From positions 2,091-66,090 of the forward strand of contig CAZTNC010000019.1 in the NCBI GenBank assembly GCA_964614915.1: a DNA stretch of 64,000 bases, in the 5' to 3' direction. Positions 2,271 to 45,521 of this stretch are shown here, one piece after another. The position numbers were made by a program, and so were the translations under genes. The DNA is from an uncultured Thiotrichales bacterium (GTDB taxonomy: Bacteria > Pseudomonadota > Gammaproteobacteria > UBA4575). How positions within the stretch are numbered: position 1 is the stretch's first letter; each line of letters begins with the position of its first letter. The notes beneath the pieces are model-generated. The model saw only the letters and a list, made by a program, of their open reading frames with translations. It had not been told where the DNA came from and searched no databases.

Positions 2271-5200
2271 ATGAACTGGCGACTGGGAGTCAGCCTCGGG
2301 ACCCACGCACTGGGGTGGTGGGCATTCCAGGTAAAGAAGACCGGTAAGCGCTGGCAGCCCCGGGCCTCCCTGAGGGGCGGGGTCTATATTTTCCCAAGCG
2401 GGCGCGAGCCTGCACGTCGGGGGCGCGTGGGGGACAGTCATGCGGTGAGGCGACGGCTGACCCGCAACGCACGTCGCAACCGCGACCGCAGGAAGACCCG
2501 GTTGCAAGCCTTCATGCGTGAACTGGTGGATCTGGGGCTGATGCCGGAGTCCATCGAGCAGCGAAGAGGGCTGTTTCAAACGTTGCCGGGATCGGCAGAT
2601 CCCCATCAGTTCAATCCCTATTTTCTGCGCGCCGAAGCCGTACACAGGACGCTGGCGCCCTACGAGCTGGGCCGAGCCCTGTTTCACCTTGGGCTTCGAC
2701 GCGGCTACAAATCGAACCAGATCGGGGAACAGGAGGAGAATGGCGGGGATTTCAAGGAACGGATCGTCAACCTCAAGCACGCGCTGGACGGGCAAACCCT
2801 TGGGCAATTCCAATGGAAGCGGATTAGGCAGGACCTGAAGCGGCAGCAGGTCGGTGAACCCCCTGTAGGGATTCGTTTTCGGGACCCAGGTAGTTTTTTC
2901 CCGGACCGCTCAATGTACGAGGCCGAGTTCGAAGCCATTCGGCAAAGACAGGCCCCCGAGCACGACCTGACGCAGGAAGACTGGGAGCGGCTGAGGGACC
3001 GCTACGTGCTGTTTCAGTGGCCGCTCAGGCCGATGTCTCGGGGGCCCTGCCGGTATTTTTCAAACGAGATAAGGCACTGGAAGGACACGCCGATCGCCCA
3101 TGACTTTCGCATCTACCGGGAACTGAACTTGCTCAAGTGGTTCGACCATGAATACCAAGGGCACGATCTGGATGCCGAGCAATACACTACGGTTCGCAAT
3201 CTGTTGCTGAGCCGCAAGTCGGAAGTCAAATTTGATGCCCTGCGCAAGCTGAAAAAGGCCGACCAATCCCTGCTGTTTCCTGACTGCTCCCACTTCAATC
3301 TGGAATCGGAGGACCGTAGCCGCAGGGGCATCGAGCCGCACGGCATGGTCAACATCCTTGGAAACCATCCCGTGCTGACCCCATTTTGGGCGCAGCGGTC
3401 CACGGACACCGGGGGGGGGGCTTGCTGGATGACATCTTCGCTGCATTGCTGGAGGAAACGGAACAGGAGGCGCTCAACGCCCGCCTGCTGGGAGAGTCCA
3501 ACCTGGAAGAGGAAGCCATCGAGACATTCAGGTCATTGAAGCTTTCCCGGGACACTGTCGGCGAATCACGCAAATTCCTGGAGAAGATCGTTCCCATCCT
3601 GCGCGATCAGCACCTGACGGTTTGGGAAGCCATCCGGGAAGTCAGGGATGACCGGGGCAAGCCCCTGCATCCTGGGCACGGGCCGAACCGCCATGATTAC
3701 GAGGAGCTTCCCTACTATGGGGAGATCCTGCGCGACTCGATGGCCGGCATGAATCCCGAAGCCGATCCTGCAATCGAACCCGAACTTCATTTTGGCAGGA
3801 TCGGTAACCCGACCGTGCATGTGGCACTGAACAACCTACGCCGGGTCGTGAATGCCCTTATCTCAAGATTTGGCACCTTGCCGGTCGAGATCTACATCGA
3901 GCTGTCCCGCGACCTGAAAAACAGCCGAAAGAAACGCAACATCGCATCCACGATCCAAGCCCGCAACAAGAAAGCCGACGACAAATATTGCGAGGAACTC
4001 AGGGAGTACGGGATACACAACCCTTCCGGGCGCGACCTCAAAAAATATAGGCTGTGGAAGGAGTTGGGCGAGGGAGATGCGGCCCGATGCTGTCCGTTTA
4101 CGGGCGAACACATCTCTGTTGCGCAGCTGCTCAGCGGCGAGGCCGAAATCGAGCATATCCTGCCCTTCAAGCGCACCCTCGATGATTCAATGGCGAACCT
4201 TACCGTAGCCATGTGCCGGGCAAATCGGATCAAGGGCAACCGGACACCCTTCGAGGCGTTTGCCGAAGGTGTCCATTCGAAAGACGGCATCCACTGGGAA
4301 ACCATCACCGAACGGGTGGCAAACCTGCCCCACCACAAGAAGTGGCGATTTGGCAAGAATGCCATGCAGATCTTCGAGCGCGAGTATGACTTCATTGCGC
4401 GCCAGTTGACGGACGATGCCTATATTGCACGAAGTGCAGCCCGCTACCTCGGATGCCTGAAAGGCGTTGAGCAAGTCGTTTCGAGCCGGGGCAGTCTGAC
4501 AGCACTTGTGCGTGGCAAATGGCACCTGAACGAGATTCTTTGCGAAGACAGCCGGAAAAGCCGCGACGATCACCGCCGCCATGCGATCGATGCGGCGGTC
4601 ACAGCCCTGGTGGACCAATCCCTTCTGAAAAGCGTTTCAAAACGAACCGCACGCGGGACCGACGGCAGGATTCACATCATGGTGCCCAAGCTGGATGACC
4701 GTATGAAAACTTCGATTCACCAGCAGGTGCACGAGATGGTCGTGGCGTTCAAGCCGGACCATGGACTGCAGGGCCAGATGTTCAATGAAACGGCGTACGG
4801 GCACATTGAACCTGACCGACGCGATCCGGACTTTCCGCAGCACACCCTTGTGACCCGCAAGTCGATCACAGCCCTGACGCCGAAAGAATGTGAATACATC
4901 CGGGACCCCGGCATCAGGAAAGCTGTATCTTCATGCTTGGGCAATGCCAGAAAAGCAGGTGAGGCGCATAAGAAGGCACTGCTTCGCTTTTCCCAAGAAC
5001 AAGGTATCCGCAGGGTTCGCATCCTCATCAAGGACCAGGTCGCCATACAAATCGAATCAGCACCCTACAAGCGGTATACGACCAGTGCGTATGCGTGTTG
5101 CGATATCTGGCGAGTACCCAAGGGCAAGGCCGGCCAGTATGTGCCGGGTGAATTTACTTGGCAGGGTGTTTTCTGGTCGTATGTGGATGTTTCTGGCGAA

Positions 5201-6846: not shown

Positions 6847-8136
6847 ATGAGTACACAATTGATCACAGAGATACGTACGCACCGGGACAACTGTAAAGAG
6901 TCTTTGCGTAGTTTCAAAATAGCTGAACACCCAGGAAAATTCGGGCAAGAGCAAGAGTACACAGCTCAGAAGATTCTCGAAAATATAAATTTAATATTAG
7001 TTGGCGTTACATCGCTCACAAAAAAACCAATTAAATTTATTCAGAATTCAACGTGGAGTGAGCGAAGAGATTTAGCCGGATGGCTAAACGAGTTGAATGC
7101 CCATATCGTTAGTAAAGATTTACCTGCAATCATTAATACTCTTGAGAGCATTAAGCCATTTTTACGGAGCATAGGCATTTATTTTACGAATGAACGAGTC
7201 GAAGCCCATGAAGAATATATTAGAAGATTACTGGTAAATGCTTCCGGCCTTTCCCAACACATCATTAAAGCAGAAGCAATTGAATCAAAGACAAAAGAAA
7301 TAGAGCAGGAAATCAGCGAATCACATCAACAGCTTACAGAGATATATGGAGAACAATTACTACGCATAGAGACATTAGGAGAGACTATAAACTCAACTGA
7401 AAGAGAACGTGAGAAATTAGCTGGTATTGTCGAGCAAGACTCTGCTAGATCCCAAGAAGTAGAGAGAATTTTAACTGAAGCCAAAAGTCATAAAGGAGTT
7501 ATAGATGGCTTTGTCCAGAGAATTTCACAAAGAGAGTCTCAGTTGGAAGATCAAGAGGAAATGACAAGGGAGTACATTGAAAAACTAGAAGCCTTTAAGG
7601 CTGGTCATGAACGCTACAATTCAGAGGCTGATGAGCTAATAAAGCAATCAAAAAGTGCCTTGGAATTATCAACTTCAGTAGGACTCAGCAAAGCATTTTC
7701 TGCACAATACGATAAAGCTAATAAAAGATTTCCTAAATTCTTTTGGATTACTACAGCTGGAATTTTGGGTGGGCTAGCAGTGTATCTAGGTTGGCTGGCA
7801 TTGGACGAAACCAACAGCGTGGCAGCAGTTATGGGCAGGATATCACTACTACCAATATTGATTGCTGGGGCATGGTTCTGTGCTGGGCAATATGTGAAGC
7901 AAAAAAATATTGCAGAAGACTACGCATATAAAGCAGTTCTTGCCAAGTCAATCGTGGGTTTTTCTGACCAACTTTCGACAGAAAGTCAAAAAGGTGATGA
8001 TCACTCAATCTTTATGAGGTTGGCTCTCTACGAAATGATTAAAAATCCTCTTCGGAAACATCCACGGGAAGCTTCTAGTATGTCTGAACTCCTTAACAAA
8101 CTTTCAGGCCTATTTAAAATTAATACTCCCGAATGA
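6847..8136 (+). CDS. Hypothetical membrane protein: long coiled coil and two C-terminal TM helices
   Basis: 429-aa AT-rich ORF with an E/K/Q-rich central region and two hydrophobic segments before 'QYVKQKNIAEDYAYKA'. Confidence 0.75.
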   Translation: MSTQLITEIRTHRDNCKESLRSFKIAEHPGKFGQEQEYTAQKILENINLILVGVTSLTKKPIKFIQNSTWSERRDLAGWLNELNAHIVSKDLPAIINTLESIKPFLRSIGIYFTNERVEAHEEYIRRLLVNASGLSQHIIKAEAIESKTKEIEQEISESHQQLTEIYGEQLLRIETLGETINSTEREREKLAGIVEQDSARSQEVERILTEAKSHKGVIDGFVQRISQRESQLEDQEEMTREYIEKLEAFKAGHERYNSEADELIKQSKSALELSTSVGLSKAFSAQYDKANKRFPKFFWITTAGILGGLAVYLGWLALDETNSVAAVMGRISLLPILIAGAWFCAGQYVKQKNIAEDYAYKAVLAKSIVGFSDQLSTESQKGDDHSIFMRLALYEMIKNPLRKHPREASSMSELLNKLSGLFKINTPE

Positions 8137-9935: not shown

Positions 9936-10157
9936 CTATTCATCACTGTTTAATGCTACTAGACAGGCACTAATCATAATTAGTGCCTGTCTAGTATAAT
10001 CAAGCTGTTCTTTAATTTGATTTATCTCGGATTCACAAACTCCAGGCTTACTATAATCTTTTGTAACATCAATACCTGTGTACATTTTTAGCTTTTTAAT
10101 ATCTGCCAATAAAGCATTTATGTTCTCGTCTATGCTTTCTTTTTTAGTTTTTGACAT
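9936..10157 (-). CDS. Hypothetical small helical protein
   Basis: 73-aa AT-rich ORF with GGAG RBS. Confidence 0.45.
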   Translation of the reverse strand: MSKTKKESIDENINALLADIKKLKMYTGIDVTKDYSKPGVCESEINQIKEQLDYTRQALIMISACLVALNSDE

Positions 10158-23540: not shown

Positions 23541-24995
23541 TCAGGTGATGCCGCCCATGCACAAGTATTTGATTTCCAGGAATTCCTCGATCCCGTACTT
23601 GGATCCCTCGCGGCCGATGCCGGATTCCTTCACGCCTCCAAAGGGCGCCACCTCGGTTGAGATCAATCCGGTATTGATGCCGACGATGCCGTATTCCAAG
23701 GCTTCTGCGATCTTCCAGACACGAACGATATCGCGGGTGTAGAAGTAGGCCGCAAGACCGTACTCCGTATCGTTGGCCATCCTGATCGCATCCTCTTCGG
23801 TCTTGAAGCGGTATACCGGAGCAAGCGGCCCGAAGGTTTCTTCCCGGCTCAATGCCATGTCGGCAGTTGCATCCACCAGCACCGTGGGCGAGTAGAAATT
23901 TCCCTGCAGGTCGTGGCGCTGTCCGCCGGTGAGCACTCGCGCACCCTTGGCGTGGGCATCCCTGACATGGTGTTCGACCTTTTCGACCGCGTGCTGGTCA
24001 ATCAGCGGCCCGATCTCGGTCGCTTCATCCAAACCGTTGCCAACGTTCATGGCGCTGACCGCTGCAGCCAGTTTCTCGTTGAAGCGGTCATAGATGCCGT
24101 CCTGCACGAATATACGGTTCGCACAGACGCAGGTCTGCCCGGCGTTTCGAAACTTCGACTGTATTGCACCCTCAACGGCAGACTCGATGTCGGCATCGTC
24201 AAAAACGATGAACGGTGCATTGCCCCCCAACTCCATCGTTACCTTCTTCATAGTGCCGGCACATTGCTCCGTCAGCCGCTTGCCGACCTCAGATGAACCG
24301 GTAAAGCTGAGCTTGCGCACGGCCGGGTTGGATGTGATCTCGTCACCGATCTCGGAGCTGATGCCACACAGGACATTCAGCACACCTGCGGGAATGCCTG
24401 CCTGCTCGGCGAGCCTGGCCGCGGCAAGTGCTGTGTGGGGTGTCTGGGATGCAGGTTTGGCGATGACCGTGCATCCGGCGGCCAGTGCCGGTGCAACTTT
24501 GCGCGTCATCATGGCGAGCGGGAAATTCCAGGGGGTGATCGAGGCCACGACACCCACCGGCTCCTTGATCACCACGATGCGCTTGTCCTGCTGGTGACCG
24601 GGGATGGTGTCGCCGTAGATGCGCTTGCCCTCTTCTGCAAACCATTCGACGAAGGAAGCTCCATACCCGACTTCAGCCCGCGATTCCACCAGCGGTTTTC
24701 CCTGCTCGCTCGTCATGAGAACGGCAAGGTCCTCCTGGTTTTCCATGATCAGCTCAAACCAGTTGCGCAGGATACCCGCCCGCTCTTTTGCAGTGAGTGC
24801 CCGCCATTTCGGGAATGCTGCGCTCGCAGCCTGGATGGCGCGCCGGGTCTCAGCGGCACCCATCCTGGGCACCGAGCCGATGATCGTGCCATCGGCCGGA
24901 TTGTCGGTTTCGATCCTGCCGCCATCGTCCGCATCCACCCAGGTGCCATCGATGTAACACTGCTCGCAAAACAGCGAGGGATTGCTGAGATTCAT
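23541..24995 (-). CDS. gabD: NAD(P)-dependent succinate-semialdehyde dehydrogenase
   Basis: 'ITPWNFPLAMMTRK', 'FTGSSEVGK', 'MELGGNAPF', 'RNAGQTCVCAN', 'EETFGPLAP'. Confidence 0.93.
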   Translation of the reverse strand: MNLSNPSLFCEQCYIDGTWVDADDGGRIETDNPADGTIIGSVPRMGAAETRRAIQAASAAFPKWRALTAKERAGILRNWFELIMENQEDLAVLMTSEQGKPLVESRAEVGYGASFVEWFAEEGKRIYGDTIPGHQQDKRIVVIKEPVGVVASITPWNFPLAMMTRKVAPALAAGCTVIAKPASQTPHTALAAARLAEQAGIPAGVLNVLCGISSEIGDEITSNPAVRKLSFTGSSEVGKRLTEQCAGTMKKVTMELGGNAPFIVFDDADIESAVEGAIQSKFRNAGQTCVCANRIFVQDGIYDRFNEKLAAAVSAMNVGNGLDEATEIGPLIDQHAVEKVEHHVRDAHAKGARVLTGGQRHDLQGNFYSPTVLVDATADMALSREETFGPLAPVYRFKTEEDAIRMANDTEYGLAAYFYTRDIVRVWKIAEALEYGIVGINTGLISTEVAPFGGVKESGIGREGSKYGIEEFLEIKYLCMGGIT

Positions 24996-43168: not shown

Positions 43169-43798
43169 TTAAGCGGCATCCACCAGCCAGCCCGTATCCC
43201 CTTTCCCCTGCCGTTCAATGGTGGGGCTTTCCGTCGTCAGGTTGATGACGGTCGTGGCCTTCACCCCGCAATAGCCACCATCGATCACCAGGTCCACCTC
43301 ATGCTCCAGGCGCTCGCGCATGGTCTGCGGGTCCGACATCGGTTCGGCATCGCCGGGCAGGATCAGCGTGCTGCTCATCAGGGGTCCGCCGAGCTCTTCG
43401 CACAGCTGCAGGGCCACCGCATGGTCGGGCACCCTCAGCCCGATGGTCCGGCGCTTCGGAGACAGCAGGCGTCGCGGCACCTCGTGGGTTGCCTTAAGCA
43501 AAAAGGTGTAGGGTCCCGGGGTACAGCGCTTCATGAGCCGGTACGCGCTGTTGTCCACCATAGCGTAGGTGGACAGCTCGGACAGGTCCCGGCATACCAG
43601 GGTGAAGTGATGTTTCTCATTGACCTGGCGAATCCTGCGAATCCTCTGCATGGCATGCTTGTCACCGATGTGGCAGCCGAGCGCATAGCAGGAGTCGGTC
43701 GGATACACGATCAGCCCGCCCTGATCGATGATCTGCACGGCACGCTGGATCAGGCGTTTTTGTGCCGTTTTCGGATGGATGACGAAATACTGGGACAT
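43169..43798 (-). CDS. yciO: YciO / SUA5-TsaC family protein
   Basis: 'IVYPTDSCYALGC', 'HHFTLVCRDLSE', 'PGPYTFLL', 'TIGLRVP'. Confidence 0.9.
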   Translation of the reverse strand: MSQYFVIHPKTAQKRLIQRAVQIIDQGGLIVYPTDSCYALGCHIGDKHAMQRIRRIRQVNEKHHFTLVCRDLSELSTYAMVDNSAYRLMKRCTPGPYTFLLKATHEVPRRLLSPKRRTIGLRVPDHAVALQLCEELGGPLMSSTLILPGDAEPMSDPQTMRERLEHEVDLVIDGGYCGVKATTVINLTTESPTIERQGKGDTGWLVDAA

Positions 43799-43872
43799 TA
43801 TTGAGAAGAAACGATGGCTCGAGAAGGATTATACGCGCATGAACACTGTCCGGGTACGTAATGAGCCGTTAT

Positions 43873-44010
43873 CTGCTATGGGAATTATATACTTGAGTGC
43901 CGCACGCTAATGTGGCACTTCCGTACCCATTTGACGCTTCGCAGGCCAGCTGATGCTGCCACCTCCACGTCCAGTAGCCCCATTCCCGAAGGCCAATATA
44001 TTCCGTGCAG
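43873..44010 (-). ncRNA. Predicted TnpB omega-RNA overlapping the tnpB 3' end; limits uncertain
   Basis: GC-rich tail after the last RuvC Asp, a GTGCC-N12-GGCAC hairpin followed by TCAA, then the inverted repeat. Inferred from known TnpB loci. Confidence 0.55.
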
Positions 44011-45134
44011 CATTTATGTCTGCATGGTCCCAATACCCGCAGGCCACACATTCATGGTAGGTCCGGGTCTTTCTGTTCTTCCTGTCCGTGTGTCCGCACG
44101 CATGGCAGGTCTGGCTGGTGTACGCAGGATGTACCTTCATCACGCGGGCCTTGTACCCGAGGCACTGCTCCAGTTTGTACCAGCCGGAACCGAGGATCTC
44201 TCGATTCAATCCCGCTTTCTGTTTCACATGCTTGCCGGGATGCTCTTGGGTTCCTTTGGCAGATTTCGTCATCGCCTGGATGTTCAAATCCTCAAGATAG
44301 ACAAGGTCGTACTTTGACGCTATTTCTTTGCTGACCTGGTGGCACCAGTCGGTGCGCGCCTGTACGATCTTACGGTGGACTCTGGCGTGGAGTCGTTTCG
44401 CCTTCAGGTAGCGGTGGCTTGGTTTAATACCCTGCTTCCAGTTACCACACTGTCTCCTTGCCATCATGCGCTGATAGCGCCTTTTGCGGGCTTCCAGTGT
44501 GCCAACATCGGGGGTGTAGTGGATGGTGCCATCCGAGAGGGCGACCTGACCAACGTTGCGGTCGATGCCTACAGGCTTAAGGCTTTCAGCTTGCGTTGTA
44601 ACCACGACTTCATACACGATATACGCATACCATTTGCCGCACTCGTACTTGATCGTGCCGCTCTTGGCAATGCCGTCGGGATAGGGATTGTTCCCTATCA
44701 GCTTGAGTTGGCCGATGCGCTGCACGTGCAACCAGTCGCCCTGAATCCTGAACAGCCCAGTCCCCAGCGGAATAGAAGGCACATGCGTGTGCTTGCCGTG
44801 GAACTTCGGAAGACCGCCTTCACCCTTCCAGAACTGCTTGTAGGTGTTTTCAATAGGTTTCAGGGACAATTTGACGATGTTGGCCGAGTAGTCCTGCAGC
44901 CACGGGATTTGCTTCCTGAGATGGGTAAATCTCAGACCCAGTGAATACCAGCAAGTATCACATTTTCCGTATGCCTCATATTCGTCCCTGAGTACTTCAA
45001 CAAAGTGGTTCCAGACATATCTGCATGCGCCCGCCAGTTCATGCAGCCTGTGAGCCTTAGCCTGCGTGTTCGGATGCAGGCGATAGCGGATGGTACGGTG
45101 CGCTTCCATTGCGGCCTTAAAGTATATAATTCCC
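43880..45134 (-). mobile_element. 1255-bp non-autonomous element: tnpB between 15-bp terminal inverted repeats (GGGAATTATATACTT), flanked by an 8-bp target-site duplication (TCTGCTAT / TTTGCTAT)
   Basis: 43880-43894 and 45120-45134 are exact reverse complements. Flanks 43872-43879 and 45135-45142 match 7/8 as direct repeats. There is no transposase inside. Confidence 0.8.
43907..45109 (-). CDS. tnpB: RNA-guided endonuclease TnpB (400 aa), RuvC triad intact
   Basis: N-terminal HTH 'YRLHP...AGACRYVWN', RuvC 'VGIDRNV', 'LEDLNI' and 'HADINAARNI', zinc finger 'TSQTCHAC...CVAC'. Confidence 0.95.
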   Translation of the reverse strand: MEAHRTIRYRLHPNTQAKAHRLHELAGACRYVWNHFVEVLRDEYEAYGKCDTCWYSLGLRFTHLRKQIPWLQDYSANIVKLSLKPIENTYKQFWKGEGGLPKFHGKHTHVPSIPLGTGLFRIQGDWLHVQRIGQLKLIGNNPYPDGIAKSGTIKYECGKWYAYIVYEVVVTTQAESLKPVGIDRNVGQVALSDGTIHYTPDVGTLEARKRRYQRMMARRQCGNWKQGIKPSHRYLKAKRLHARVHRKIVQARTDWCHQVSKEIASKYDLVYLEDLNIQAMTKSAKGTQEHPGKHVKQKAGLNREILGSGWYKLEQCLGYKARVMKVHPAYTSQTCHACGHTDRKNRKTRTYHECVACGYWDHADINAARNILAFGNGATGRGGGSISWPAKRQMGTEVPH

Positions 45135-45221
45135 TTTGCTATCCTTTGCGCAATAAAATTATGTATATGTGGTCCGGGTCCTTCAGGACACCAAGCGGCC
45201 AGTATCCCTGAGTGAGCCATC

Positions 45222-45521
45222 ATGCTTTATGCCATTATCAGCCAAGATGTAGCAGACAGTCTAGCCAAGCGAAAGTCGGTCCGAGACCAGCACATCGCGC
45301 GTCTTGACGAGTTGAAAGACCAGGGCCGCCTGGTGCTGGCGGGCCCTCACCCGGCCGTCGACAGCCCCGACCCGGGAGAAGCCGGGTTCACGGGCAGCCT
45401 GATCGTAGCTGAATTCGAGTCCCTGCAGGCGGCGCAAGCGTGGGCCGATGCCGATCCCTACATTGCAGCCGGGGTCTATGAACAGGTGGTGGTCAAGCCT
45501 TTCAAGCGGGTCCTGCCGTAA
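45222..45521 (+). CDS. yciI: YciI family protein
   Basis: 'RDQHIARL', '[10 protein letters not shown]', 'GSLIVAEF', 'WADADPY'. Confidence 0.95.

What the first reader, a model, noticed from the sequence alone, without database searches (positions are those of the whole stretch)
43872..45142. Active-site-intact TnpB packaged in an IS1595/ISNwi-like inverted-repeat element with an 8-bp target-site duplication
Seen: tnpB fills almost all of a 1255-bp unit. GGGAATTATATACTT (43880-43894) lies 12 bp past the stop codon, and its exact reverse complement (45120-45134) lies 10 bp before the ATG. The flanks TCTGCTAT (43872-43879) and TTTGCTAT (45135-45142) form a 7/8 direct repeat. Established: IS200/IS605 and IS607 elements, the usual TnpB carriers, have neither terminal inverted repeats nor duplications. 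Inverted repeats starting GG with an 8-bp duplication are typical of the IS1595 family, and from memory the ISNwi subgroup end consensus is 'ggnnatTAT', which GGGAATTAT fits (verify in ISfinder). Inference: an RNA-guided nuclease has been captured as the sole cargo of a non-autonomous DDE-mobilised cassette. I do not know of a described TnpB-IS1595 pairing, but have not searched.
Basis: partly seen in the sequence, partly recalled or inferred. Interest (0 to 1): 0.88.

Follow-up and report, generated by a model that had tools for sequence, protein, structure and literature searches.

The report
TnpB cassette with IS1595-type ends
An RNA-guided nuclease gene (tnpB) sits alone inside a 1.25-kb mobile cassette whose inverted ends and 8-bp target duplication are those of IS1595-family "cut-with-a-DDE-enzyme" insertion sequences found in related genomes, so it is moved by a borrowed transposase of a kind not previously named as a TnpB partner.

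Summary
GGGAATTATATACTT (43880-43894) and its exact reverse complement (45120-45134) bracket an intact 400-aa tnpB. The repeat extends to about 25 nt (22/25), and the flanks match 7/8.

It is not chance. In 37 homologous copies from sponge and coral symbiont Gammaproteobacteria, the same ends recur. Twenty copies have 8-bp flanks matching at 7/8 or better exactly in register, against 0-1 in shifted controls. Two empty sites carry a single copy of the 8-mer.

Four elements encoding true IS1595-family transposases (Zn-ribbon plus DDE_Tnp_IS1595) carry ends 22-24/24 identical to those of cassette subfamilies and also make 8-bp duplications. None lies in the window's 64 kb.

Three further results:
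- A covarying RNA structure, like an omega-RNA scaffold, overlaps the tnpB 3' end and runs into the right end.
- A tnpB-oriented target bias (purine 30/33, never C, just 5' of the duplication) looks like a TAM.
- End modules are swapped as matched pairs between copies.

TnpB in DDE/TIR elements, including solo copies moved in trans, was described in 2023 (IS630, ISL2, IS1031). IS1595 was not named. The ISNwi1 subgroup assignment could not be tested.

The parts
43860..43879 (-). Predicted guide template: the first ~20 nt beyond the right end on the tnpB strand (ATAGCAGA + TAACGGCTCATT), that is, the duplicated 8-mer plus flank
   Evidence: Inference only, by analogy with TnpB omega-RNAs whose guide is read from DNA just beyond the transposon's right end (PMC10691335). 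No RNA data are available.
43872..43879 (.). Target-site duplication, copy on the tnpB 3' side (TCTGCTAT)
   Evidence: Matches 45135-45142 at 7/8.
43880..43904 (.). Right terminal inverted repeat (tnpB 3' side), about 25 nt, with the outer 15 nt exact
   Evidence: (I1). The same outer 15-16 nt are found on the IS1595 transposase elements L009 9640-12022 and L116 2406-4803.
43896..43919 (-). Hairpin formed by the inner part of the right repeat and the sequence just upstream (AGUGCCAC...GUGCGGCACU). It contains the stop codon and is specific to the window's subfamily.
   Evidence: MFE fold of the last 150 nt. The same insertion and hairpin are present in L117, L118 and L120.
43907..45109 (-). 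tnpB, 400 aa, with intact RuvC D-E-D and CCCC zinc finger
43933..44051 (-). Conserved structured RNA (five helices) overlapping the 3' end of tnpB: an omega-RNA-like scaffold
   Evidence: RNAalifold on 23 copies. Pair counts: 97.6% of cells paired against 29-42% with slid partners; 85 double-sided changes against 5-12; 0/500 shuffles reach the observed score.
43982..43987 (-). Invariant GGGAAU loop of helix 3, complementary to the terminal AUUCCC of the right end (a possible pseudoknot next to the guide)
   Evidence: All six pairs are possible in 22 of 23 copies. Both sides are nearly invariant, so there is no covariation test.
45110..45134 (.). Left terminal inverted repeat (tnpB 5' side), ending 10 bp (outer 15-mer) before the ATG
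45135..45142 (.). Target-site duplication, copy on the tnpB 5' side (TTTGCTAT)
45143..45144 (-). TAM-like positions just 5' of the duplicated 8-mer (GG on the tnpB strand in this copy)
   Evidence: Across 33 independent copies the proximal base is a purine in 30 and never C. The next base is T in 18. The mirror positions on the other side are at background. The functional reading is inference.

Best explanation
Window 43880-45134 is a non-autonomous insertion cassette of the IS1595 family. Its only gene is tnpB, an RNA-guided nuclease.

Mobility (anatomy shown, mechanism inferred). About 24-nt terminal inverted repeats beginning GGGAATTAT are the binding sites of an IS1595-family DDE transposase (Zn-ribbon plus DDE_Tnp_IS1595) encoded elsewhere. 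The enzyme makes 8-bp staggered cuts at A+T-rich targets, which leaves the 8-bp duplication. The window's copy is an older insertion: arms 22/25, duplication 7/8, and 78% identity to its nearest known relative. No partner transposase lies in these 64 kb.

Cargo (structure shown in silico, function inferred). tnpB keeps its catalytic residues. A covarying structured RNA overlaps its last ~180 nt and continues into the right repeat. In most relatives the stop codon lies inside that repeat. The likely guide is therefore read from the DNA just outside the right end, namely the duplicated 8-mer plus flank. That sequence matches only the unoccupied target site.

An orientation-specific bias just 5' of the left copy of the duplication (T, then a purine, never C) fits a short TAM. 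The element's own right end finishes in CC, which would spare the occupied site. I infer that TnpB cuts empty alleles and so favours retention or re-copying of the cassette. Empty alleles could be regenerated by duplication-mediated precise excision or brought in by recombination. This would parallel what TnpB does for IS605 and IS607.
For: Ends and duplications. 18/29 genome copies have 8-bp flanks matching at 7/8 or better exactly in register, against 0-1 in nine shifted registers. Two further 8/8 cases are. A motif-blind finder gives terminal inverted 14-mers matching at 13 or more positions in 21/30 family copies, against 2/61 distant TnpBs, none of which has a duplication.

Empty sites. 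L012 is empty for the L004 insertion and L015 is empty for the L017 insertion. Each has a single 8-mer.

Cognate transposases. L013 3238-4519, L009 9640-12022, L113/L114 2106-4785 and L116 2406-4803 encode proteins that pass NF033547 (199-225 bits, cut-off 75) and hit PF12760 plus PF12762. They have 23-24/24 inverted repeats, and three of the four have 8/8 duplications.

Shared ends. The L113 end GGGAATTATGTAGCAAAATCTGCA is 23/24 identical to cassettes L001, L004 and L005. The L013 IS end is 22/24 identical to cassettes L017 and L019 of the same genome. The window shares the outer 15 nt with the L009 and L116 elements.

Matched-pair end swapping. L001 and L003 have 93-100% identical bodies but unrelated end modules. 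Within-genome copies at different sites are up to 97% identical.

Protein..

RNA..

Asymmetric target bias. Purine in 30/33 (p about 4e-7) and T in 18/33 (p about 0.003), with the mirror side at 16/31 and 5/31.

Family definition. [quoted passage not shown]
Against: - No transposase with these ends is in the window or visibly on its contig, and trans-mobilisation has not been shown experimentally anywhere.
- 17 of 37 copies lack an in-register duplication. One of them (L015) lacks it even against its own empty site.
- The window's own empty site was not found. All sampled sponge and coral metagenomes that reach a junction carry the filled allele.
- No RNA data are available and there is no Rfam match. 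The RNA's existence, ends and guide are therefore inferred.
- Much of the covariation separates two large clades, so it represents few independent events.
- The TAM reading rests on 33 sites, and the control set is only 4 transposase-bearing elements.
Confidence: 0.85

Rival explanations
1. It is an ordinary IS200/IS605 (IS1341-group) tnpB-only element moved by a Y1 TnpA in trans. On this view the inverted repeat and flank match are incidental or are subterminal hairpins.
For: TnpB is normally carried by IS200/IS605 or IS607 elements. tnpB-only elements were described as lacking TIRs and TSDs (PMC3627910). The protein scores 160.9 bits on the IS200_TnpB model.
Against: That score is far below the model's cut-off of 425. 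About 24-nt terminal repeats and in-register 8-bp duplications recur at unrelated sites. Empty sites show a single 8-mer. Identical ends flank IS1595 transposase genes. No conserved 4-5-nt target motif abuts the left end. No copy has room for a tnpA. Distant IS605-type TnpBs used as an outgroup lack both features.
Confidence: 0.03
2. The window's copy is a stranded, no longer mobile relic. It has IS1595-type ends but no partner transposase in this genome. tnpB persists either by its own RNA-guided activity or as a host-retained gene.
For: The arms match 22/25 and the duplication 7/8. The nearest relative is only 78% identical in DNA. There is no IS1595 transposase in 64 kb. None of the best 120 relatives of the cognate transposase lies on a 317,239-bp contig. 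The same filled allele is seen in two sponge runs and a coral run. TnpB clusters are reported to be mostly immobile (PMC10691335).
Against: The ORF and catalytic residues are intact. The outer 15 nt of both ends are perfect. A second family copy (P0002, 81% identity) appears to lie on the same contig. Depth over the element's 3' part in X1 is about 5-6 times the flanks, and another flank is joined to the same end, so related copies exist in the community. The rest of the genome was not available to search.
Confidence: 0.45
3. The terminal repeats serve the RNA rather than a transposase, for example by pairing the 5' and 3' ends of the tnpB transcript or by acting themselves as the guide. On this view the cassette's mobility has another cause.
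For: The right repeat is part of the transcript and lies next to a covarying RNA structure. A GGGAAU loop can pair with the terminal AUUCCC in 22/23 copies. The repeats differ between subfamilies yet stay matched.
Against: The same repeats bound elements that carry no tnpB at all. Those elements carry an IS1595 transposase plus a methylase-HNH gene or Mom and PvuII-like genes. 8-bp duplications and single-copy empty sites are the signature of staggered-cut DNA transposition. An RNA role for the outermost bases may coexist with the DNA role, but it cannot replace it.
Confidence: 0.05

Closest known systems
DDE-transposase-associated TnpB branches (DDE-1 to DDE-6) of Altae-Tran et al. 2023, PNAS (PMC10691335); families named there or in the 2026 review PMC13565253: IS630, ISL2, IS1031
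   Same: TnpB lies inside elements with symmetrical inverted terminal repeats. The tnpB 3' end is within 250 bp of the transposon end. Solo tnpB copies are bounded by ends nearly identical to those of transposase-bearing elements, implying mobilisation in trans.
   Different: The partner here is an IS1595-family transposase, which is not mentioned in the main text of either paper (0 occurrences; the supplements are not held). In about 40 copies the transposase and tnpB are never in one element. The stop codon and RNA run into the terminal repeat, and the presumptive guide starts with the 8-bp duplication.
IS1595 family insertion sequences (ISfinder; related to eukaryotic Merlin), including members with passenger genes
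   Same: Both have 8-bp target duplications and inverted repeats beginning GG. The cognate elements encode the Zn_ribbon_IS1595 plus DDE_Tnp_IS1595 transposase (definition in PMC8101967; tests). The related autonomous elements here also carry cargo: a methylase-HNH gene, or Mom plus PvuII-like genes.
   Different: The window element has no transposase, and its only gene is tnpB. Membership of the ISNwi1 subgroup rests on a remembered end consensus and could not be checked. The nearest annotated plasmid transposases are 44% identical or less, are named only at family level, and show no comparable ends.
IS200/IS605 family, IS1341 group (tnpB-only elements)
   Same: Both have a single tnpB gene of the same domain architecture, about 1.2-1.4 kb long, presumed to be moved in trans.
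   Different: IS200/IS605 elements have no terminal inverted repeats and make no duplication. They have subterminal hairpins and insert 3' of a fixed 4-5-nt motif (PMC13565253; PMC3627910). Here both repeats and duplications are present.
Fanzor1 genes captured by eukaryotic TIR/DDE transposons (Mariner, Sola, IS4, MuDR; Bao and Jurka 2013, PMC3627910)
   Same: A TnpB-type nuclease is carried as cargo of cut-and-paste DDE elements that make target duplications.
   Different: Those are eukaryotic or viral, much more divergent proteins, with different transposase superfamilies. No Merlin/IS1595-type carrier is mentioned in that paper.
Mobile insertion cassettes and MITE-like non-autonomous derivatives of bacterial IS (concept recalled from the ISfinder literature, not checked here)
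   Same: IS ends bracket passenger DNA without a transposase, and the unit is moved by the parent IS in trans.
   Different: The passenger here is itself a selfish RNA-guided nuclease with its own RNA, not a host-benefit gene or non-coding filler.

Membership tests
IS1595 family (as a non-autonomous derivative) | 8-bp target-site duplication | tested here: met
   The window copy matches 7/8. 20 of 37 family copies match at 7/8 or better in register, against 0-1 in shifted controls. The family definition is from PMC8101967.
IS1595 family (as a non-autonomous derivative) | Terminal inverted repeats shared with elements that encode the family's transposase | tested here: met
   The four transposase-bearing elements have 23-24/24 repeats. 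Their ends are 23/24 (L113 against L001/L004/L005) and 22/24 (L013 against L017/L019, same genome) identical to cassette ends. The window shares the outer 15 nt with the L009 and L116 elements.
IS1595 family (as a non-autonomous derivative) | Element encodes a transposase with Zn_ribbon_IS1595 and DDE_Tnp_IS1595 domains | tested here: not met
   The window element and all ~40 cassette copies encode only TnpB. The domains are present in the cognate elements. The cassette is therefore a non-autonomous derivative, not an IS in its own right.
IS1595 family (as a non-autonomous derivative) | Mobilisation by an IS1595 transposase | not testable with these tools
   This needs a transposition assay. 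Only the footprints (repeats, duplications, empty sites, multi-copy state) were observed.
ISNwi1 subgroup of IS1595 | End consensus 'ggnnatTAT' and transposase clustering with ISNwi1 | not testable with these tools
ISfinder is not available, the papers held do not give it, and database names stop at 'IS1595 family transposase'.
IS200/IS605 family (IS1341 group) | No terminal inverted repeats and no target duplication; subterminal hairpins; insertion next to a fixed 4-5-nt motif | tested here: not met
   Repeats and duplications are present. Only a 2-nt bias lies 9-10 nt upstream of the left end. The definition is from PMC13565253.
IS200/IS605 family (IS1341 group) | TnpB reaching the IS200/IS605-specific NCBIfam model cut-off | tested here: not met
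   NF038281 scores 160.9 bits against a cut-off of 425, and NF038280 (IS607) scores 97.6 against 350.
TnpB / OMEGA RNA-guided nucleases | HTH, OrfB_IS605 (RuvC) and zinc-ribbon architecture with catalytic D-E-D | tested here: met
   NF040570 at 219.8 bits, cut-off 100; D183, E273, D364 and four Cys invariant; full-length alignment to ISDra2 TnpB.
TnpB / OMEGA RNA-guided nucleases | Structured omega-RNA overlapping the tnpB 3' end and reaching the transposon's right end | tested here: met
   Five helices have compensatory changes well above the slid and shuffled controls. This is in silico only. No transcript data are available and there is no Rfam family.
TnpB / OMEGA RNA-guided nucleases | Transposon-adjacent motif next to the target matched by the guide | tested here: inconclusive
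   There is a one-sided bias (purine 30/33, C 0/33; T 18/33) at the position a TAM would occupy in the empty site. It is short, and there is no biochemical test.
DDE-associated TnpB (Altae-Tran 2023) | Inverted terminal repeats, tnpB 3' end within 250 bp of the end, and solo copies sharing ends with transposase-bearing elements | tested here: met
   The criteria are from PMC10691335.
DDE-associated TnpB (Altae-Tran 2023) | Transposase and tnpB together in one element in at least some members | tested here: not met
   No such element is among the ~40 cassettes or the four transposase-bearing elements examined. This is not an exhaustive search.

The most novel reading that the evidence does not exclude
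TnpB here has been adapted to a duplication-making DDE transposon. Its guide starts with the 8-bp target duplication, it needs only a relaxed 2-nt TAM (T-purine, never C), and the element's own terminal CC acts as the self-protection signal. The nuclease would then cut only the pre-insertion allele. That would make these cassettes the first bacterial case in which RNA-guided homing is coupled to IS1595-type transposition, and it would shape which insertions survive. The outermost repeat bases would do double duty, as the transposase site in DNA and as a pseudoknot strand in the RNA.
Probability: 0.3. Interest if true: 0.8.

Novelty: new variant of a known kind. Interest (0 to 1): 0.62.

Why it matters
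TnpB is the ancestor of Cas12. Its known role, cutting the scarless empty site so that the transposon is copied back, was worked out for IS605 and IS607, which leave no duplication. A 2026 review (PMC13565253) treats it as an open question why, and how, the OMEGA system would serve DDE transposons, which already leave a break at the donor.

This family offers a compact natural system of about 1.25 kb for asking that question. It has many copies, defined ends, identified candidate partner transposases, a predicted RNA and a predicted short TAM.

It also affects annotation. These genes are labelled "transposase" or IS200/IS605 accessory proteins, but they belong to IS1595-type cassettes. The IS1595 clade that moves them also carries restriction-modification-like cargo.

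Finally, a TnpB with a very short TAM would be of practical interest as a small genome-editing nuclease.

Tried and rejected
- The metagenome scan with a family alignment returned only ~30%-identical TnpBs because the back-translated patterns were generic. I used them only as an outgroup.
- The look-up of P0002, the second copy on the window's contig, found no record.
- Rfam gave no match at E of 1 or below in 43600-45400.
- No RNA sequencing run holds the element.
- Laying sponge and coral metagenome contigs on the locus gave no empty-allele joint. The only contig encoding the window's YciI is the same filled allele. No fetched locus has a yciO-yciI junction.
- I tried to verify the ISNwi1 end consensus in the literature and through annotated plasmid relatives. 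Neither worked: the names stop at family level, and the distant elements show no comparable ends.
- Plasmid records hold no close TnpB relative (35% identity or less).
- I considered that the upstream T-purine-A-W-W bias is a flank-supplied -10 promoter box. I rejected this because the second position is G as often as A. The promoter scan was at background.
- I suspected a CRISPR-like array beside the L013 IS. It is a plain 68-nt tandem repeat.
- The supplements of Altae-Tran 2023, which would settle whether any DDE branch is IS1595-linked, are not held.
Full report
**Observation**

- GGGAATTATATACTT is at 43880-43894, and its exact reverse complement at 45120-45134.
- These lie 12 bp beyond the stop codon and 10 bp before the ATG of a minus-strand ORF (43907-45109).
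- The flanking octamers TCTGCTAT and TTTGCTAT match at 7/8.
- The repeat finder extends the inverted repeat inwards to about 25 nt per arm, matching at 22/25.
- The 15-mer occurs nowhere else in the window. Shuffles yield a mean of 0.5 matches even when three mismatches are allowed.

The ORF is a complete TnpB.
- It has HTH_OrfB_IS605, OrfB_IS605 and Cas12f1-like_TNB domains.
- It passes NCBIfam guided_TnpB, but falls far below the IS200-specific and IS607-specific cut-offs.
- It aligns over its full length with the solved ISDra2 TnpB.
- In a 14-member family alignment, D183, E273, D364 and the four zinc-finger cysteines are invariant.
- The ORF listing reports a longer 438-aa frame starting at 45223, but the family alignment puts the start at 45109.

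**Is it more than chance? Relatives.**

A scan of one genome per species returned 31 loci encoding 52-75%-identical TnpBs. All come from gammaproteobacterial MAGs of the sponge-symbiont type (Candidatus Porisulfidus, Oxydemutatoraceae and unnamed lineages), often with several copies per genome. Public runs that hold the window's locus are sponge and coral metagenomes.

Nearly every copy has GGGAATTAT... a few to a few dozen bases upstream of the ATG and ...ATAATTCCC at the other end. In most copies the stop codon TAA lies inside that right terminus.

Of 29 copies where both ends could be placed, 13 have identical 8-bp flanks and 5 match at 7/8, all exactly in register. In nine shifted registers, 0-1 copies reach 7/8, and mean identity is 6.3 against about 2.3. 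Eight further copies, obtained by exact-protein look-up, add two 8/8 cases, one 6/8 case, and one perfect 8-mer displaced by 5 nt.

The duplicated octamers all differ from one another and are 74% A+T, in genomes of 43-58% G+C.

A motif-blind search finds terminal inverted 14-mers matching at 13 or more positions in 21/30 family copies. Among ~30%-identical TnpBs fetched from metagenomes, it finds them in 2/61, and none of those has a duplication.

Two empty sites were found among the loci.
- L012 has one octamer where L004 has the element between two.
- L015 has one CTATAATT where L017 has the element between two.

Within genomes, copies at different sites are up to 94-97% identical, so movement has been fairly recent.

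**The partner transposase**

Scanning all fetched DNA for further pairs of such ends turned up two other elements. Look-ups of transposase homologues that share a genome or contig with cassettes gave two more.

| Locus | Length | Inverted repeat (match between arms) | Duplication | Cargo besides the transposase |
|---|---|---|---|---|
| L013 3238-4519 | 1282 bp | 24/24 | ATTGCCGC, 8/8 | none |
| L009 9640-12022 | 2383 bp | 23/24 | TTTGCTTT, 8/8 | DNA methylase-HNH |
| L113/L114 2106-4785 | 2680 bp | 24/24 | AAATGGCC, 8/8 | methylase-HNH |
| L116 2406-4803 | 2398 bp | 24/24 | none | Mom-like and PvuII-like genes |

Each encodes a protein of about 305-313 aa with Zn_ribbon_IS1595 and DDE_Tnp_IS1595 domains. 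The two scanned against NCBIfam (from L009 and L013) score 199-225 bits on the IS1595 transposase model, whose cut-off is 75. For the L113/L114 and L116 transposases the two Pfam domains come from the look-up tables.

The ends co-vary with those of cassette subfamilies.
- The L113 element's GGGAATTATGTAGCAAAATCTGCA is 23/24 identical to the ends of cassettes L001, L004 and L005.
- The L013 element's GGGAACTATATACTATTCTGCACA is 22/24 identical to cassettes L017 and L019 of the same genome.
- The window's outer 15 nt are identical to those of the L009 and L116 elements.

The published definition of the IS1595 family is 8-bp duplications, a single transposase, and the Zn_Tnp_IS1595 and DDE_Tnp_IS1595 domains (PMC8101967). 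The autonomous elements meet it. The cassette meets it except that it has no transposase.

The window itself holds no IS1595 transposase. None of the best 120 relatives of the cognate enzyme lies on a contig of the window's length.

**Modularity of the ends**

L001 and L003 lie in one genome. From the ATG to ...GTCAAACGG they are 93-100% identical in mosaic blocks. Everything outside that is unrelated apart from the terminal GGGAAT.AT: the left repeat plus leader, and the last ~40 nt including the right repeat.

Both ends have therefore been exchanged as a matched pair. That is expected if the repeats are a recognition module for a particular transposase. It is hard to explain if they were part of the nuclease's own machinery.

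**The RNA**

I aligned the last 260 nt of 23 copies. Stretches are invariant at third codon positions, although the proteins are only about 55% identical.

RNAalifold predicts five helices. For these helices, 97.6% of cells pair, against 29-42% when partners are slid by 1-3 columns. There are 85 double-sided changes against 5-12, and no shuffle out of 500 reaches the observed covariation. The caveat is that many of the changes separate two large clades.

In the window the helices span 43933-44051 on the minus strand. They are followed by a subfamily-specific hairpin (43896-43919) and the right repeat.

The invariant GGGAAU loop of helix 3 can pair with the terminal AUUCCC in 22/23 copies. This suggests a pseudoknot next to the guide, but it cannot be tested by covariation.

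There is no Rfam match, and no RNA run holds the element.

**A one-sided target bias**

I oriented every copy by tnpB. The base just 5' of the left copy of the duplication is 9 nt upstream of the left end.
- It is a purine in 30 of 33 independent insertions and never C (p about 4e-7).
- The base before it is T in 18 of 33 (p about 0.003).
- The mirror positions beyond the right copy are at background: 16/31 and 5/31.

A simple IS transposase with near-identical ends should show a symmetrical preference. Something that senses tnpB's orientation seems to shape which insertions are seen.

If the guide is read from the DNA just beyond the right end (the duplication plus flank), these positions are exactly where a TAM would lie in the empty site. 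The element's own right end finishes in CC, the bases that are absent or nearly absent there.

This is inference. The four transposase-bearing elements are too few to serve as a control.

**How it most likely works**

Shown:
- The anatomy of a non-autonomous IS1595-type cassette.
- Footprints of staggered-cut transposition at many sites.
- Candidate partner transposases with matching ends in related genomes.
- An intact nuclease gene.
- A conserved RNA structure.

Inferred:
- Trans-mobilisation by those transposases.
- A guide made of the duplication plus flank.
- A short T-purine TAM.
- A role in eliminating empty alleles and thereby retaining the cassette.

The window's copy is probably an older insertion. 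Its arms match 22/25 and its duplication 7/8, it is 78% identical to its nearest known relative, and the same filled allele appears in several metagenomes. It may currently be stranded.

**Comparison with what is known**

tnpB-only elements were long described as lacking inverted repeats and duplications (PMC3627910). IS200/IS605 and IS607 elements have neither (PMC13565253). The element fails those defining features.

Altae-Tran et al. 2023 (PMC10691335) reported six TnpB branches associated with DDE transposases. All have inverted terminal repeats, and some solo TnpBs share those ends, from which the authors inferred mobilisation in trans. That paper names IS630, and the 2026 review adds ISL2 and IS1031.

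IS1595 appears in neither main text. None of the nine papers in the held library that mention both TnpB and IS1595 appears, from its title and abstract, to describe such a pairing. The 2023 supplements are not held, so priority cannot be fully settled.

I therefore rate this a new variant of a known kind. The principle is published. The following appear to be new:
- The IS1595 partner.
- The tight packaging, with the ORF and RNA running into the repeat.
- A guide that would begin with the duplication.
- The TAM-like bias.
- The swapping of ends as matched pairs.

The ISNwi1 subgroup assignment remains unverified.

**Verdict**

Noticed in passing
L009 9640-12022; L113/L114 2106-4785; L116 2406-4803: The IS1595-family elements that share ends with the tnpB cassettes carry their own cargo downstream of the transposase. 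In L113/L114 it is an intact 399-aa N6/N4 DNA methylase fused to an HNH nuclease. In L009 the same gene is split into two ORFs. In L116 it is a Mom-like gene plus a PvuII-like endonuclease gene. This IS1595 clade therefore seems to be a general carrier of nuclease and modification genes.
   Followed up: partly
L015 5956-7214 against L017 ~7250-7275: The L015 cassette has no 8-bp duplication, although L017 carries the matching uninterrupted site (...ctatgaaaaaaGatgttag...). It either inserted without a duplication or lost it later. It is also one of only three copies with a pyrimidine at the TAM-like position.
   Followed up: partly
L001 5978-7220 against L003 5965-7223: These two copies lie in one genome. 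Their bodies are 93-100% identical in mosaic blocks, with alternating perfect and ~80% stretches that suggest gene conversion between copies. Both end modules are unrelated.
   Followed up: partly
L013 4677-4907 (also near 10040 and 10426, inverted): A 68-nt tandem repeat of 3.4 units at 98% identity sits directly beside the IS1595 element. Each unit contains GGGAATTGTCTAGTGCAGAACCAC, which resembles an IS end. The whole unit is conserved, so it is not CRISPR-like.
   Followed up: partly
L016 and L030, about 3025-4137: Fragments of an IS1595 transposase gene (two tblastn pieces on opposite strands) lie about 1.8 kb upstream of the tnpB cassette. They are probably a decayed or rearranged autonomous element.
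   Followed up: no
window 43863-44076, run X1: In sponge metagenome X1, contig depth over the conserved 3' part of the element is about 100, against 16-19 in the flanks. One contig joins the same terminal sequence at 43878 to a different flank. The community therefore holds several related copies at other sites.
   Followed up: partly
window 7661-7675 and 23563-23577: Two 12/15 matches to the terminal 15-mer have no partner end nearby. They are probably chance.
   Followed up: partly
L112 2921-4217: A perfect AGTATTAA lies on both sides of this cassette. On the left it is separated from the GGG terminus by five extra bases (TGGAA), which suggests an imprecise or remodelled left end.
   Followed up: no
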